DNA of 64,000 nucleotides, from assembly GCA_021785125.1 (NCBI GenBank), contig JAJYGF010000004.1, forward strand, positions 67,124 to 131,123, in the 5' to 3' direction. The notes beneath the pieces were generated by a model that did no database searches, was not told the DNA's origin, and saw nothing but the letters and a program-made list of their open reading frames with translations. Shown in pieces: positions 17,241 to 60,768 of the stretch (the stretch's first letter is position 1; the number at the start of each line of letters is the position of its first letter). This DNA comes from a bacterium (lineage in GTDB: Bacteria > Patescibacteriota > Minisyncoccia > Moranbacterales > UBA2206). Position numbers and translations under genes: made by a program.

Positions 17241-18167
17241 ATGGAAAATGATATATATGATCTGGCTATAATTGGAACCGGTCCGGCCGGATTGTCCGCT
17301 TCTTTGTATGCGTCGCGTTTCGGCATCAATCACGTCGTGATCGGAGGTCTGATGGGCGGATTGATTTCCGAATCGCATCACATCGACAACTATCTCGGCG
17401 TCGAAGATGCGACCGGATTTGAATTCGGCCAAAAAATAACCGACCATGTCAAAAAGTATGGCGTGGAAATTATTCCGATCCTGGTGCGACATATTGAAAA
17501 AGAAAATAATCTTTTCAAATTGAGTTTGGACAGCACCAAGGAAATAAAAGCCAGGACCATATTGCTCGCGACCGGAACCAAACGACGCAAATTAGGTGCC
17601 AAAGGCGAAGAAGAATTTGCCGGCAAGGGCATTTCCTATTGCGCGACTTGCGATGGATTTTTTTACAAAGGAAAAACCGTGGCCGTCGTGGGTGGCAGCG
17701 ACAGCGCGGCGGGGGCCGCTATCTATCTGGCCGACATTGCCGAAAAAGTTTATGTGATATATCGCGGTTCCGAATTAAGATGCGAGACGTACTGGAAGAA
17801 AAAAATCGAAGAGAATCCGAAAATAAAGGTGCTTTGCGGATATAATCTGAAAGAAGTTGCGGGAGATCAAAAATTACAAAAAGTGATTTTGGATAACGAT
17901 TATGAAGGCAAAAGCGAAATCGAATTGGACGGGTTGTTTATCGAAGTCGGATCCGATCCGAGCGTAGATTTTGCGAAAGATCTGGGAGTGGAAGAGGATA
18001 AAAGTGGATATATAAAAATACGGTCCGATTGCTCCACTTCAATTGAAGGCGTCTGGGCGGCCGGTGACATTACCGACGGTTCGGACAAATTCCGGCAAGT
18101 GATCACAGCGGCAGCCGAAGGCGCGATCGCTGCCCGAAGCATCTTTAATTATCTAAAGAGAAAATAA
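17241..18167 (+). CDS. trxB: Thioredoxin-disulfide reductase
   Basis: FAD-binding motif GTGPAGLSA, redox centre CATCDG, NADPH-binding motif GGSDSAAGAAIYLA. Confidence 0.9.
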   Translation: MENDIYDLAIIGTGPAGLSASLYASRFGINHVVIGGLMGGLISESHHIDNYLGVEDATGFEFGQKITDHVKKYGVEIIPILVRHIEKENNLFKLSLDSTKEIKARTILLATGTKRRKLGAKGEEEFAGKGISYCATCDGFFYKGKTVAVVGGSDSAAGAAIYLADIAEKVYVIYRGSELRCETYWKKKIEENPKIKVLCGYNLKEVAGDQKLQKVILDNDYEGKSEIELDGLFIEVGSDPSVDFAKDLGVEEDKSGYIKIRSDCSTSIEGVWAAGDITDGSDKFRQVITAAAEGAIAARSIFNYLKRK

Positions 18168-57444: not shown

Positions 57445-57531
57445 GGAAGGGTCGCCTAGTGGTTTATGGCACCGCCTTGGAAAGGCGGCATACTATAAAA
57501 GGTATCGGGAGTTCGAATCTCCCCCCTTCCG
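57445..57531 (+). tRNA. tRNA-Ser (anticodon GGA), class II with a long variable arm
   Basis: Acceptor GGAAGGG/CCCTTCC, D-arm GCC-tagtggtttat-GGC, anticodon stem CCGCC/GGCGG with loop ttGGAaa, an 18 nt variable arm, T-arm GGGAG-ttcgaat-CTCCC, discriminator G. CCA is not encoded. Confidence 0.8.
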
Positions 57532-57643
57532 CAGTGACAACTTTTTATCGCACAGACTCAAACAGCCGAGACTAAGCGGCGACTCGAGCGCTTATAAAAA
57601 GCTAAAAAATACGAAGCAATTTCTGCTCCGTATTTTTTGTTTT

Positions 57644-58975
57644 CTACTCTTCAATCAAGGTTATCTTTTTGTCTTTGTAATTCAACCGGCTGCGCAGATT
57701 GGCCAGTAGTTCTCGCTTGTCGGACACACTACCCTCTTTGAATAGGTATTTGGCATATTGGCGGATATCGACTTCATTTTCTTCCACTAAATTCTGGCCA
57801 CTTTTTCCATTGACCACTTTTTGCAGTTTGTTGAATCGACGAATTTCATCTTCCAGTTTCTGCCGCATTCCCAGCTCGTTGATGTCCACTTTGTCTATGA
57901 TTTTTAGCAGTTCTTCAATCAATTCTTCCTCCCGGATATATTTGTTTTTGCAGTGCCGATCCCTAGCTCGCGAGCAGGAGTAATAGATATACCTGGCGTG
58001 CGTACCATCTTTGAGCTGTTTGTATTTTTCCTCAGCTGATATGCCCGATCCGCAGTAGCCGCAGGTGAATAATTTAGTAAAGGCGAATTCTTTATTTTCT
58101 CTGACAATTTTATCTCTTTTGAGCCACGCTTGGGCTTTTTCAAATACCTCTTGGGTAATTATCGGATCATGTTTTCCGGTATACCAGTTACCGCTTTTGG
58201 CTGGATATTCAAAGACTCCATAATAGAAAGGATTATCCAGCGTCCGATACACTCCAGCCAGTGTCAGCGGCTTATTGCCTCTCGTGTAAAAATTTAATTC
58301 GAATCTGAGCCAGTGATATATCTTTCTGCCTGAATAATGTTCGTAAGCTACTTTTTCAAATATCTTTTTGATAATCGGCGCTCTTTGCGGATCGAGAAGA
58401 AGTTGGCATTTTTTATCCATGTGTTTCTGGTTGAGATATCCCAGCGGCGCGACCGTCGGCCAGAGTCCCATCTCGCATCGGGCGCGAAGACCTCTTTTCA
58501 CATTGATGCCTCGGTTGTCATTTTCCAGCTTGGCTTGCGAGCCAAGAATCATCAGCAGGAACTTTTCATTTGGAGAATTGGTGAATCGTTGCCCGTAAGT
58601 TCGGATTTCTTGCAGTAATTTAGCATCCATAAGGTCGACTATTTTTCCTAGGTCACCGGCATTTCTAGAAATACGATCCGGCGCCCAGGTCATAATACCA
58701 TTAAATTTGCCGGATTTGATTTCTTCCACAATTTCATTAAAGACTGGTCTTTGCCCAGTCTCCTTGGCGCTGTGCGATTCTCGTTTTATTTCCACGATTT
58801 CCAGATTTTCTCGCTCCGCCAGTTGCATCATTTCTTTTATTTGGGAGTCGATGGAAAGCACCTGTCTTTCCTCCGACTCGGTCGATTTTCGGGCATAAAG
58901 ACAGTAACGTACTGGAATCGCTACTGGCTGGGCTTGGGCTGGTAGCCCTAATTGGCTGGCATTTGGATAGCTCAT
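57644..58975 (-). CDS. Large serine recombinase (resolvase/integrase family)
   Basis: Catalytic N-domain VRYCLYARKSTESEERQVLSIDSQ...MTWAPDRISRNAGDL, recombinase domain GLWPTVAPLGY, and a Zn-ribbon CGYCGSGIS...YYSCSRARDRHC. Lies 112 bp from tRNA-Ser. Confidence 0.85.
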   Translation of the reverse strand: MSYPNASQLGLPAQAQPVAIPVRYCLYARKSTESEERQVLSIDSQIKEMMQLAERENLEIVEIKRESHSAKETGQRPVFNEIVEEIKSGKFNGIMTWAPDRISRNAGDLGKIVDLMDAKLLQEIRTYGQRFTNSPNEKFLLMILGSQAKLENDNRGINVKRGLRARCEMGLWPTVAPLGYLNQKHMDKKCQLLLDPQRAPIIKKIFEKVAYEHYSGRKIYHWLRFELNFYTRGNKPLTLAGVYRTLDNPFYYGVFEYPAKSGNWYTGKHDPIITQEVFEKAQAWLKRDKIVRENKEFAFTKLFTCGYCGSGISAEEKYKQLKDGTHARYIYYSCSRARDRHCKNKYIREEELIEELLKIIDKVDINELGMRQKLEDEIRRFNKLQKVVNGKSGQNLVEENEVDIRQYAKYLFKEGSVSDKRELLANLRSRLNYKDKKITLIEE

Positions 58976-59200
58976 AGGTTTATTGGTTATTTCTTACTAC
59001 CCAATGAATGACGCAATCCTTTGAAGGAGTCAAGAGCGTCCCGAGTAGGTAAGCTGTTGACAACTAATAGCTTAAAAGGCTCTTGAAAACTTGCTGGAAA
59101 TTGCTTGAATTGTGGAATTACAAAAAAGTCCATTTTAGCATTTACCAAAGCCACAATTTAAGCTAAACTTAAGCCGAGGTAATTCAAATTAATAAAAATT

Positions 59201-59674
59201 ATGAATAATTCAAAAAGCGTTTTTGACGAAAAATTTACGAATCTCTATAGCCTTACTAAAACATTGAAGTTTGAATTGAAACCAGTGGGGAAAACATTGG
59301 ATAATATGCGCATGCATTTGAAATATGATAAGAATTTACAAACATTTTTAGTTGATCAGGAAATCAAAGACGCGTATCAAATTCTTAAGCCCGTATTTGA
59401 CAAACTACATGAAGAATTTATCACGAAAAGTTTGGAGAGTGAAAAAAATAAAAGCCTTTTTAATTTTGAAAATTATTTAGAGTTGCGGAAAAAATTGGCA
59501 TTAATAAATAAAAAAAAGGAAGAAGTAGAATATAAAAAAGTAGAAAGTGATTTTACAAAAGAAGAAATAAAATTGCGGAAAATGTTTGATGATGTTTGGA
59601 AAAATGAAGGGGAAAATTTTAAAAACAAAGTCGGTGTAAATGAAAAAGGGAAAGCAATCTTACTACTTTTGTAG
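59201..59674 (+). pseudogene. cas12a: Cas12a (Cpf1) N-terminal fragment: WED-I plus the start of REC1 only, 157 aa, truncated
   Basis: VFDEKFTNLYSLTKTLKFELKPVGKTLDN...DQEIKDAYQILKPVFDKLHEEFI aligns with Fn/AsCas12a residues ~4-80 (F.[21 protein letters not shown]...KDYKKAKQIIDKYHQFF). The ORF stops at 157 aa and its last codons run into a CRISPR repeat. Confidence 0.7.
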
Positions 59675-59799
59675 ATTAAAATCGTCCATCCATTGGAATT
59701 TTGCCGAATACCGATATAAGATTTCTACTTTTGTAGATCAGGCTCAAAGACAATCCGCTTTGCGCCGAATACCGATATAAGATTTCTACTTTTCAATAA
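59641..59799 (+). CRISPR. Type V-A (Cas12a-type) CRISPR mini-array: 3 repeats (the first and last degenerate) and 2 spacers
   Basis: Central repeat GCCGAATACCGATATAAGATTTCTACTTTTGTAGAT (36 nt, 59703-59738) ends with the Cas12a 5' handle UCUAC-UUUU-GUAGAU. Repeat 1 (59641-59676) keeps only ...CTACTTTTGTAGAT. Repeat 3 (59764-59799) matches for 30 nt then diverges. Spacers TAAAATCGTCCATCCATTGGAATTTT and CAGGCTCAAAGACAATCCGCTTTGC. Confidence 0.7.
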
Positions 59800-59832: not shown

Positions 59833-60768
59833 GTGAGAACATTTACCGAATTATTCAATTTAATATTGACCGCGGATAAGGAGACAAGCCGCAAAGCGGC
59901 GCGGGAGGTGAGAAAAGCGGTGTATGGATCCGATGATCGAGGCGGGTATGAGATCATAAAATCCATCATCAATGATGCTCCCGCGAAATACGAAAAGATA
60001 ATGGAAGATTGGAGGCGGGAGAATTTTGTCATGGCTATATCCGTAATGTATTTTCTGCACGACAAAGAAAATAAGCCGGACTTCTTGTTTCCTTGGTTAT
60101 TTAAACTTCTTCAGCATGAAAGAGGCAACATCCGTCATGCCGCGGTGCGCATGATTGGCAACGAGCTCGGACCGCTAACCGTGCACCTGCGCGTACCTGA
60201 ATGGAGATCAATCCATCCGGGATATTCAACCGAAAAAGCGGACCGCATCCTCTTTGAGTTGTATGTCAATCTGAACAAAATGATGTCCGACTTATGGAAG
60301 CCTTCATATAAAAGGTATAGATACATTTCTTCATTGCCCGCCAGTCCTTACAAGTCGGTGCAAATGCTGCTGGCGGAGTTGGAAGAAGATTGTGGCAAAA
60401 AATACATTGATGATTTGATAAAACGGATAGATGACATGAACAGCCTGGATAATACTTTAATTTCCGTGGTTAAGACAGAATCCAAACAACAAATTCTGGA
60501 AAGACGAAAAGAAATTGAAGCCGAGATTTCAGAAATGCTCAAAGAAACCGAAAGTGATTTTGAATTGGAGGACGTTAAAGAAGCGATATATAACGAAGAA
60601 GAGCAGGATGATTTTATGCATTTAGTCACTATGTTTGATCGCGGCGGCGATGCTTCGGAATTGAGTAATGTTTTGGAACTGGTCACGGATGCCTGGAATT
60701 ATTTCCCGCATAAAATTCTCGGCGGCATTTCTCCCGCCGAACAGGCGCTAAAATATGGAAAAAAATGA
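59833..60768 (+). CDS. Hypothetical alpha-helical protein immediately downstream of the mini-array
   Basis: 311 aa, no recognised motif, acidic C-terminal half. Followed by the terminator-like caagaggtcgtcttttttt. Confidence 0.4.
   Translation: MRTFTELFNLILTADKETSRKAAREVRKAVYGSDDRGGYEIIKSIINDAPAKYEKIMEDWRRENFVMAISVMYFLHDKENKPDFLFPWLFKLLQHERGNIRHAAVRMIGNELGPLTVHLRVPEWRSIHPGYSTEKADRILFELYVNLNKMMSDLWKPSYKRYRYISSLPASPYKSVQMLLAELEEDCGKKYIDDLIKRIDDMNSLDNTLISVVKTESKQQILERRKEIEAEISEMLKETESDFELEDVKEAIYNEEEQDDFMHLVTMFDRGGDASELSNVLELVTDAWNYFPHKILGGISPAEQALKYGKK

What the first reader, a model, noticed from the sequence alone, without database searches (positions are those of the whole stretch)
59201..59799. 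Cas12a N-terminal fragment fused by a deletion junction directly into a type V-A CRISPR array
The 157-aa ORF is unmistakably the first ~150 residues of a Cas12a (WED-I/REC1 block FTNLYSLTKTLKFELKPVGKTLDN). Its last codons (…ILLLL*) are encoded by sequence whose 3' 14 nt (CTACTTTTGTAGAT) are the 3' end of the array repeat. So the junction between cas12a codon ~155 and the interior of a repeat is visible in the sequence. Everything normally between them is missing: about 1150 aa of Cas12a, cas4/cas1/cas2 and the leader. This is either a decayed locus caught mid-erosion, or a deliberately minimal mobile-element-borne module. In the latter case it could be a Cas12a N-terminal 'decoy' plus crRNAs that exploit a Cas12a encoded elsewhere, or an anti-CRISPR-like dominant-negative fragment. 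Type V-A systems are, to my knowledge, rarely if ever reported in CPR-like genomes.
Basis: partly seen in the sequence, partly recalled or inferred. Interest (0 to 1): 0.85.

Follow-up and report, generated by a model that had tools for sequence, protein, structure and literature searches.

The report
Eroded Cas12a CRISPR locus remnant
This is a bacterial CRISPR immune locus in which one deletion removed about 90% of the cas12a nuclease gene, all the spacer-acquisition genes and the leader, joining the gene stub directly to a two-spacer array; it is real, but it is an ordinary case of immune-system decay rather than a purpose-built module.

Summary
Window 59201-59674 (+) encodes 157 aa. Residues 1-154 are the N-terminus of a Cas12a, equivalent to residues 2-137 of a 1359-aa relative. 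Codon 155 onward is the last 14 nt of a type V-A repeat. Two spacers, one full 36-nt repeat and a degenerate terminal repeat follow.

The junction is identical in contigs from four assemblies, so it is not an assembler error.

The decisive result is a sister genome, about 92% identical in DNA across the array end and the next gene. At the same chromosomal site it carries a cas1 3' stub, an intact cas2, a 165-nt leader, the identical repeat with other spacers, the same terminal repeat and the same downstream gene. A complete V-A locus therefore once sat here, and each lineage lost the effector through a different deletion.

A strain 0.1% diverged from the window keeps the junction but has a different second spacer, which fits continued array erosion.

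I found no support for a decoy, anti-CRISPR or mobile-element role. Type V-A systems are well documented in CPR bacteria.

One side result is modestly interesting: cas12a 5' stubs fused to arrays recur in other lineages.

The parts
58976..59200 (+). Intergenic region upstream of the cas12a stub. It presumably holds the old cas12a promoter (inferred, not shown).
   Evidence: Lies between the divergent recombinase gene and the ATG. The sigma-70 consensus scan found no site upstream of the ATG, and its count for the region was no higher than chance.
59201..59662 (+). cas12a 5' remnant, codons 1-154. It covers WED-I and the first third or so of REC1; the domain assignment comes from published Cas12a structures and was not tested here.
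   Evidence: TIGR04330 E 7e-15; solved Cas12a N-termini E 1.7e-9; 56% identity to residues 2-137 of the intact 1359-aa P0134; tblastn with 21 full-length Cas12a proteins.
59201..59674 (+). Open reading frame of 157 aa, stop included. The last three codons and the stop are read from repeat sequence.
   Evidence: The exact protein is found on 9 contigs.
59663..59676 (+). Deletion junction and repeat remnant: the last 14 nt of a repeat (CTACTTTTGTAGAT). With the preceding cas12a codon TTA it mimics 17 nt of the crRNA handle with one mismatch.
   Evidence: D2: 59660-59676 against 59722-59738, 94%. The hairpin is reduced from 5 to 4 base pairs.
59677..59702 (+). Spacer 1 (26 nt), shared by both strain variants.
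   Evidence: No match in the window; its first 20 nt (PAM-proximal) have no exact match in IMG/VR.
59703..59738 (+). The only complete 36-nt V-A repeat.
   Evidence: 5-bp hairpin, -4.8 kcal/mol; 33/36 identical to the intact-locus repeat of L025; 36/36 identical to the sister-genome repeats.
59739..59763 (+). Spacer 2 (25 nt). It is replaced by an unrelated 29-nt spacer in strain L005.
   Evidence: No match in the window; its first 20 nt have no exact match in IMG/VR.
59764..59799 (+). Terminal degenerate repeat: 30 nt identical to the repeat, then CAATAA in place of GTAGAT, so no hairpin forms.
   Evidence: The same terminal repeat and downstream flank occur in sister genome L103.

Best explanation
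This is the remnant of a chromosomal type V-A CRISPR-Cas locus ordered cas12a-cas4-cas1-cas2-leader-array. It sat immediately upstream of the conserved 311-aa gene at 59833-60768.

One deletion of at least about 5.7 kb joined cas12a codon 154 to position 23 of a 36-nt repeat. It removed about 1220 codons of cas12a, the three adaptation genes, the leader and an unknown number of repeat-spacer units. The junction shows at most 1-2 nt of microhomology, so this was illegitimate recombination rather than repeat-repeat recombination (inferred).

What is left cannot cleave DNA, process crRNA or acquire spacers on its own:
- The stub lacks the REC2, WED-II/III, PI, RuvC and Nuc domains.
- The first 'handle' has a weakened stem.
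- Only spacer 2 sits behind an intact repeat.

After the deletion the array kept shrinking through repeat-repeat recombination, which left different second spacers in strains that differ by 0.1% (inferred).

The 157-aa ORF stays open most likely because the event is recent, not because it is selected. The ultimate cause (relaxed selection, or escape from autoimmunity in a small CPR genome) is inferred, not shown.
For: 1. Identity of the parts.

2. Orthologous sister locus L103, about 92% identical in DNA from the array end through the 311-aa gene. From left to right it carries:
- an unrelated minus-strand gene
- the last 85 of about 317 Cas1 codons (67% identical to L025 Cas1)
- an intact cas2 (85% identical)
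- a 165-nt leader
- three repeats identical 36/36 to the window repeat, with three unrelated spacers
- the same 30-nt terminal repeat and the same flank
So the full locus was ancestral at this site, and the effector was lost independently in each lineage.

3. No other cas sequence in 64 kb plus 5.7 kb. The word-indexed search of 5.8 billion 90%-identity protein clusters found no homologue closer than 66% identity over the aligned part.

4. Strain L005 has the identical junction and only 7 SNPs in 6.2 kb, but a different spacer 2. Only these two array variants exist in public data.

5. Decay of this Cas12a clade is common. Among 95 related loci, 65 have a full-length gene, 19 are cut by contig ends and 11 (7 distinct) are internal remnants of several kinds. 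These include an IS insertion, a MITE plus frameshift, and deletions with or without the array.

6. Precedents: loss of whole cas cassettes, and spacer loss by repeat recombination (PMC6990116); a fragmented CasY in CPR Roizmanbacteria (PMC6509639).
Against: - The ORF has no internal stop or frameshift over 154 codons. That would also fit selection, but with 0.1% strain divergence it carries no information.
- The array persists, and one spacer differs between near-identical strains. Acquisition through Cas1-Cas2 supplied in trans could also explain this.
- I could not read the rest of the genome (GCA_027428275.1), so a second Cas12a that could use these crRNAs is not excluded.
- Four of eight remnants have the right-hand breakpoint in the array and none has it in cas4, cas1 or cas2. 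A model of random breakpoints does not obviously explain that.
Confidence: 0.8

Rival explanations
1. A functional orphan mini-array. The old cas12a promoter still transcribes the array, and a Cas12a encoded elsewhere (a second locus, a plasmid or phage, or a partner cell) processes and uses at least the spacer-2 crRNA. The remnant is kept by selection.
For: - Spacer 2 sits behind a perfect repeat with the 5-bp hairpin.
- Spacer 2 is the one that differs between near-identical strains.
- Stub-plus-array architectures recur in other lineages.
- Cas12a orthologues are known to accept each other's handles (my recollection of Zetsche et al. 2015, not checked here).
Against: - No other cas gene in about 70 kb.
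- The 5.8-billion-cluster search, which holds contigs from the same ENA assemblies, found no homologue closer than 66% identity.
- The sister genome has also lost its effector.
- No protospacer was found for any of the three spacers in the window or IMG/VR.
- The first handle is damaged and there is no leader.
Confidence: 0.1
2. The deletion was driven by autoimmunity. A self-targeting spacer made Cas12a lethal, and survivors were cells that had deleted the nuclease. This concerns the cause of the deletion and is compatible with the best explanation.
For: - Deletion of cas genes is a documented escape route (PMC6990116).
- A fragmented CasY with self-targeting spacers occurs in CPR bacteria (PMC6509639).
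- In the analogous remnant L007, cas12a sequence runs exactly up to the first base of a full repeat, and a TTTG PAM lies 28 nt upstream. That is the product expected from recombination between a self-derived spacer and its protospacer in cas12a. I estimate the chance of such a PAM at about 0.1.
Against: - In the window the junction lies inside the repeat, not at a spacer end, so spacer-protospacer recombination does not explain it.
- The remaining spacers have no match in the window.
- Among the 816 unique spacers extracted from the fetched loci, one matched a cas12a gene of another locus at borderline significance (21 nt, 1 mismatch, E 7.6e-4) and none matched its own locus's cas12a.
Confidence: 0.2
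3. The 157-aa protein is a selected decoy, anti-CRISPR or dominant-negative Cas12a fragment, possibly carried by a mobile element delimited by the neighbouring serine recombinase.
For: - The ORF is intact.
- It keeps the most conserved N-terminal block of Cas12a (FTNLYSL.KTL.FELKPVGKT).
- A large serine recombinase and tRNA-Ser lie directly upstream.
Against: - The site is orthologous to a chromosomal CRISPR locus in the sister genome, whose left flank is different and lacks the recombinase.
- No phage or plasmid genes are nearby; dnaG and rpoD lie 4 kb downstream.
- Other stubs are frameshifted or end at different residues, so no conserved stand-alone family is established.
- The predicted structure is of low confidence and the WED-I strand is unfolded without the rest of the protein.
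- The last four residues and the stop are accidental repeat sequence.
Confidence: 0.03
4. Assembly artefact: a chimeric contig made by collapsing sequence between cas12a and the array.
For: - Arrays are prone to assembly collapse.
- One Logan contig of the L007 lineage does show a collapsed array.
Against: - The same junction appears in four assemblies made by at least three pipelines, and in a second strain from another sample.
- There is no shared repeat between cas12a codon 154 and the array that could mislead an assembler.
- The contigs run through both flanks.
Confidence: 0.02

Closest known systems
Canonical type V-A CRISPR-Cas loci of CPR/Patescibacteria. Examples are the Peregrinibacteria GW2011_GWA2_33_10 locus (L024) and the intact loci L025 and L014 found here.
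   Same: - Same Cas12a clade: 50-66% identity over the N-terminus.
- Same 36-nt repeat ending in ATTTCTACTTTTGTAGAT, 32-33/36 identical.
- Same spacer length (25-29 nt).
- Same orientation of gene and array, and the same kind of degenerate terminal repeat.
   Different: Only codons 1-154 of cas12a remain. There is no cas4, cas1 or cas2, no leader, and only two spacers. The gene stub is fused in frame to the inside of a repeat.
Orphan or degenerate CRISPR arrays left after deletion of the cas cassette (for example Lactobacillus acidophilus NCFM, reviewed in PMC6990116).
   Same: The array survives while the effector and adaptation genes are deleted. Spacers are lost by repeat-repeat recombination.
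   Different: Both ends of the deletion are visible at base resolution, inside cas12a and inside a repeat. A sister genome documents a second, independent deletion of the same locus.
Fragmented CasY (Cas12d) locus of CPR Roizmanbacteria (PMC6509639).
   Same: A type V effector inactivated in a CPR genome while the array is retained. The authors suggest that fragmentation avoids autoimmunity.
   Different: There the gene is broken by point mutations, all domains are still encoded and self-targeting spacers are present. Here 90% of the gene is physically gone and no self-targeting spacer is detectable.
Virus- or plasmid-borne mini-arrays and solitary repeat units (RNA anti-CRISPRs, PMC10651486; crRNA-like regulatory RNAs, bioRxiv 10.1101/2024.10.29.618823).
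   Same: A very short array or lone repeat without cas genes that could in principle engage a Cas protein made elsewhere.
   Different: This one is not on a recognisable mobile element. Its repeat and spacers are absent from IMG/VR, its origin by in-situ decay of a chromosomal locus is documented, and no seed match to a cas promoter was found.

Membership tests
Type V-A CRISPR-Cas system (complete, functional) | Full-length Cas12a effector with REC, WED, PI, RuvC and Nuc domains (about 1200-1500 aa) | tested here: not met
   Only residues equivalent to 2-137 of a 1359-aa relative are encoded. TIGR04330 scores 53.8 bits against a cut-off of 300. No other Cas12a segment occurs in the window.
Type V-A CRISPR-Cas system (complete, functional) | Adaptation module cas4-cas1-cas2 next to the effector | tested here: not met
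   tblastn with Cas4, Cas1 and Cas2 from five intact relatives finds nothing in the window or in L002.
Type V-A CRISPR-Cas system (complete, functional) | Array of about 36-nt repeats whose 3' end forms the UCUAC-N4-GUAGA hairpin followed by U, with spacers of about 25-30 nt, transcribed in the same direction as cas12a | tested here: met
   There is one full repeat, one 14-nt remnant and one terminal degenerate repeat; spacers are 26 and 25 nt.
Type V-A CRISPR-Cas system (complete, functional) | AT-rich leader upstream of the first repeat | tested here: not met
   cas12a coding sequence abuts the repeat remnant. The sister locus L103 has a 165-nt leader that is absent here.
Cas12a protein family (TIGR04330) | N-terminal WED-I/REC1 block homologous to Cas12a | tested here: met
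   E 7e-15 to model positions 2-106. Solved Cas12a N-termini match. Foldseek of a low-confidence model was not significant.
Degenerate / orphan CRISPR locus | Array without functional cas genes nearby, derived from a once complete locus | tested here: met
   The orthologous sister locus keeps a cas1 stub, cas2, the leader and the same repeat.
Mobile-element-borne mini-array / RNA anti-CRISPR (solitary repeat unit) | Encoded on a virus, plasmid or prophage | tested here: not met
   The neighbours are housekeeping genes (pyruvate kinase, tRNA-Ser, dnaG, rpoD) plus one serine recombinase. The repeat is absent from IMG/VR. The site is orthologous in the sister genome.
Mobile-element-borne mini-array / RNA anti-CRISPR (solitary repeat unit) | Spacers target competing elements, or the repeat RNA sequesters a host Cas protein | not testable with these tools
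   No protospacers in the window or IMG/VR. Binding or sequestration needs experiments.
Anti-CRISPR protein | Small protein on a mobile element that inhibits a Cas effector, often next to aca genes | tested here: inconclusive
   No mobile-element context and no established stand-alone family. Inhibition itself was not testable.

The most novel reading that the evidence does not exclude
The fusion of a cas12a 5' stub to an array is not a random wreck but a recurrent, favoured outcome. It appears in the window, in L007, in L032 and probably in L016. These are different CPR lineages, including ones that read UGA as glycine. Four of eight remnants end in the array and none ends in cas4, cas1 or cas2.

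There are two possible reasons:
- A specific escape mechanism, such as recombination between a self-acquired spacer and its protospacer in cas12a. The exact repeat-boundary junction and the TTTG PAM in L007 suggest this.
- Selection to keep the array under the cas12a promoter for use with a Cas12a supplied in trans.
Probability: 0.12. Interest if true: 0.6.

Novelty: new member of a known kind. Interest (0 to 1): 0.3.

Why it matters
The window locus together with its sister is a clean, base-resolved example of how a class 2 CRISPR-Cas locus is dismantled in a reduced CPR genome. Two independent deletions removed the effector from the same ancestral locus, and the array then eroded. This bears on the long-standing observation that CPR bacteria rarely keep CRISPR-Cas systems. 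It also warns annotators that short 'Cas12a' proteins next to arrays are remnants, not new miniature effectors or anti-CRISPRs. It does not reveal a new mechanism. The only lead with wider interest is the apparent excess of stub-to-array junctions among remnants.

Tried and rejected
- Pfam scan of the 157-aa ORF: no Cas12a family hit. NCBIfam and the solved-structure sequences did hit.
- Structure route: the AlphaFold2 model had mean pLDDT 64.5 with residues 1-25 disordered. Foldseek against the PDB gave no significant match, with Cas12a chains only at E above 1. The structural check is therefore inconclusive, and the domain assignment rests on sequence.
- Rfam: no family matches the repeat; the only hit in the window is tRNA-Ser.
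- Promoter and terminator consensus scan: no more sites than in shuffled sequence.
- Protospacer searches for spacer 1, spacer 2 and the variant spacer, in the window and in IMG/VR: nothing.
- Seed search for crRNA-like regulation of a promoter: nothing apart from one 13-nt PAM-less match.
- Repeat search in IMG/VR: nothing.
- Search for more array variants using the ORF that reads across the array: only two variants exist.
- Idea that the breakpoints coincide with the crRNA processing site: rejected. The retained repeat lengths are 14, 22 and 36 nt in three remnants.
- Idea that cas12a genes carry an internal handle-like sequence that promotes recombination: rejected. No handle motif occurs inside any of the full-length genes.
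- Idea that the recombinase/tRNA-Ser pair marks a mobile island carrying the module: not supported. The sister genome has a different left flank, and related recombinases are not found next to intact loci, with one exception: an insertion downstream of a truncated gene in L084.
- The spacer versus cas12a self-targeting screen over 816 unique spacers gave only borderline hits.

Full report
**What is in the sequence**

The plus strand carries a 157-aa ORF at 59201-59674. Pfam gives no hit. NCBIfam TIGR04330 (Cas12a/Cpf1) matches residues 10-124 to model positions 2-106 of 1288 with E 7e-15. Twenty-five distinct solved Cas12a sequences match through their first 70-125 residues, best E 1.7e-9.

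Against the closest intact relative that I could fetch (P0134, 1359 aa), the alignment runs from residue 4 to residue 154 and stops at NEKGKAIL, against NEKGKDIL ending at P0134 residue 137. Other full-length relatives continue ...ILKE.GYKVLTE.GILKYI. About 10% of a Cas12a is therefore encoded. By published Cas12a structures (my knowledge, not tested here) this is WED-I and the start of REC1.

From codon 155 the sequence is CTACTTTTGTAGAT (59663-59676), which is identical to the last 14 nt of the repeat. With the last cas12a codon, TTA, 16 of 17 positions match. The rest of the array follows:
- spacer 1, 59677-59702 (26 nt)
- the only complete repeat, 59703-59738
- spacer 2, 59739-59763 (25 nt)
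- a terminal repeat that keeps 30 nt and then diverges, 59764-59793

The repeat folds into the expected 5-bp hairpin. The junction copy keeps only 4 bp and the terminal copy keeps none. The repeat is 33/36 identical to that of an intact V-A locus (L025), and its length and spacer sizes match about 40 intact arrays.

**Is the junction real?**

The exact 157-aa protein occurs on nine contigs. The four that I read are identical to the window across the locus or nearly so. They come from NCBI GCA_027428275.1, two ENA assemblies and a Logan assembly. One of them, L005, is a different strain. It has 7 SNPs in 6.2 kb and the same junction, spacer 1 and terminal repeat, but spacer 2 is replaced by an unrelated 29-nt spacer. 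A search with the ORF that reads across the array found only these two variants in 5.8 billion protein clusters. An assembly artefact is very unlikely. Read mapping was not possible.

**The decisive comparison**

The 311-aa gene just downstream of the array (59833-60768) has a 91%-identical homologue on a 50-kb contig from the same sample as L005. That contig, L103, is about 92% identical to the window in DNA from the array end through this gene.

Upstream of the gene, L103 carries the same 30-nt terminal repeat and flank. It also has three repeats identical 36/36 to the window repeat, with three unrelated spacers, then a 165-nt leader and an intact cas2. Upstream of cas2 only the last 85 of about 317 Cas1 codons remain, and they abut an unrelated minus-strand gene.

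A complete V-A locus therefore once occupied this chromosomal site. The window lineage lost everything from cas12a codon 155 to the inside of a repeat. Taking gene sizes from relatives, that is about 3.7 kb of cas12a plus about 2.0 kb from its stop to the first repeat, so at least about 5.7 kb. The sister lineage independently lost cas12a, cas4 and most of cas1.

No Cas4, Cas1, Cas2 or other Cas12a segment exists in the window or in the 5.7 kb beyond it. The word-indexed search of the 5.8 billion clusters found no homologue of the stub closer than 66% identity over the aligned part, intact or not.

**How it most likely works**

It most likely does not work. The stub lacks all catalytic and most RNA- and DNA-binding parts. 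No leader or adaptation genes remain. The first handle has a weakened stem and altered upstream bases. Only spacer 2 follows an intact repeat.

The open reading frame and the two array variants are both expected for a recent deletion followed by repeat-repeat recombination. Repeat-repeat recombination is a known route of spacer loss (PMC6990116). Deletion of cas genes with retention of arrays is also known (PMC6990116), and inactivation of a type V effector in a CPR genome has a precedent (PMC6509639).

I put 0.8 on this reading. What is shown: the identity of the parts, the junction, the orthologous ancestral locus and the independent losses. What is inferred: the single-step nature of the deletion, the order of events and the lack of function.

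**Rivals**

- Use of the array by a Cas12a encoded elsewhere cannot be excluded, because I could not read the rest of the genome. Nothing found supports it: there are no protospacers, no seed matches and no close homologue of the stub in the 5.8-billion-cluster search, which holds contigs from the same ENA assemblies.
- A decoy or anti-CRISPR role, or carriage on a mobile element, is not supported. The neighbours are housekeeping genes, apart from a large serine recombinase beside tRNA-Ser. The sister genome has a different left flank. The repeat is absent from IMG/VR. The exhaustive profile search returns a mix of full-length proteins and assorted short fragments rather than an established stand-alone family. 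The structure model is poor.
- Autoimmunity may have been the selective cause, but the window itself holds no evidence for it.

**Wider survey**

Using an alignment of N-terminal fragments I fetched 92 related loci and mapped them, with three fetched earlier, against 21 full-length Cas12a proteins. Of these 95 loci:
- 65 carry a full-length gene, usually followed by about 2 kb of adaptation genes and then an array
- 19 are cut by contig ends
- 11 (7 distinct) are internal remnants

With the window that makes eight remnants:
- Four are joined directly to an array. These are the window (14 nt of repeat kept), L032 (293 codons with a MITE-like insertion and frameshift; 22 nt of repeat kept) and L007 (about 165 codons abutting a full first repeat). 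L016 is the fourth, less certainly (a single handle).
- L038 has an array about 300 nt downstream.
- L001 and L035 have none.
- L084 is interrupted by an IS and a recombinase.

None has its right end in cas4, cas1 or cas2. The breakpoints differ, so these are independent events. They do not share a position in the repeat.

In L007 the cas12a sequence ends exactly at the repeat boundary, with a TTTG PAM 28 nt upstream. That is what recombination between a self-derived spacer and its protospacer would leave, but chance alone would give such a PAM about one time in ten. This pattern is the only part of the finding that might be new. My sampling was biased, because I searched with the N-terminus only, and the numbers are small.

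**Comparison with the known, and verdict**

The locus is a new example of a known kind of thing, a degenerate CRISPR-Cas locus with an orphan array. It is unusually well resolved, because both deletion ends are visible and a sister genome preserves the other half.

I score interest at 0.3. The most novel reading not excluded is a favoured or selected stub-to-array architecture. I give it a probability of about 0.12 and an interest of about 0.6 if true.

Noticed in passing
L103:1-1310 (ENA ERZ27233565 k141_768742): The sister genome carries the orthologous locus in a different state of decay: a cas1 3' stub (321-575), intact cas2 (597-878), a 165-nt leader, three full repeats identical to the window repeat with three other spacers, and the same terminal repeat. 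The effector was lost independently in two sister lineages.
   Followed up: yes
L005:4594-4640 (ENA ERZ27233565 k141_54914), equivalent to window 59739-59763: A strain with only 7 SNPs in 6.2 kb has spacer 2 replaced by CCGATTGCTCCACAGCTTACAGCTGACAG (29 nt). The junction, spacer 1 and the terminal repeat are unchanged.
   Followed up: yes
L007:7906-9320 (GCA_964367985.1, labelled Peribacteria; reads UGA as Gly): About 165 codons of cas12a run exactly up to the first base of a full repeat, with a TTTG PAM 28 nt upstream of that boundary. Fourteen full repeats and a degenerate terminal repeat follow, then mutS. Spacers 2-7 are duplicated in tandem as spacers 8-13.
   Followed up: partly
L032:52-1290 (CAZWYJ010000006.1): A cas12a remnant of about 293 codons is interrupted at 555-640 by a short insertion with inverted-repeat ends (MITE-like) and a frameshift. 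It is then fused to the last 22 nt of a repeat and a six-repeat array, followed by recJ.
   Followed up: partly
L016:9995-10640 (= L052; 148-kb contig, code 25): A cas12a remnant of about 185-215 codons contains a single handle-like sequence, GATGATTTCTACTATTGTAGAT, near its end, with no further repeats. It is unclear whether this is a collapsed array or lies inside residual cas12a coding sequence.
   Followed up: partly
window 57445-58975: tRNA-Ser(GGA) is followed by a large serine recombinase (443 aa; Resolvase, Recombinase and Zn-ribbon domains) that is divergent from the cas12a stub. A second large serine recombinase lies about 8 kb downstream (L002:18362-19924), beyond dnaG and rpoD. The sister genome has a different left flank. 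L090 also has tRNA-Ser(GGA) 900 nt upstream of an intact cas12a.
   Followed up: partly
L084:7720-10632 (also L030, L081-L083): cas12a is truncated after about 517 codons. It is followed by a minus-strand ORF that looked to me like an IS transposase (not annotated with any tool) and a 529-aa serine recombinase next to tRNA-Met. The same structure recurs in several samples.
   Followed up: no
L070:240-4700 and L075:1-4450: Full-length cas12a is followed after only 202 nt by an array, with no cas4, cas1 or cas2. This is a minimal effector-plus-array locus.
   Followed up: no
L001:7800-8480 (671-kb JGI contig): A cas12a stub of about 150 codons has a late frameshift and no array. A repeat-like sequence (TCTATACAACTCTTGTAGAT) lies about 180 nt upstream of its start and might be a crRNA-like regulatory element.
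   Followed up: no
L051:1840-12700: A related genome (RpoD 67% identical) has dnaG, rpoD, an intact cas12a, adaptation genes, an array and tRNA-Asn in that order. The V-A locus lies next to dnaG-rpoD there as well, but on the other side.
   Followed up: no
window 18025-18037: The first 13 nt of the variant spacer of L005 match the window here exactly, but the upstream bases are CGGT, not a TTTV PAM. This is probably chance.
   Followed up: no
window 59833-60768: The 311-aa protein next to the array has no Pfam or NCBIfam family, yet it has more than 500 homologues, the named ones mostly from Patescibacteria. It is a conserved gene of unknown function and is not linked to CRISPR in the other loci.
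   Followed up: partly
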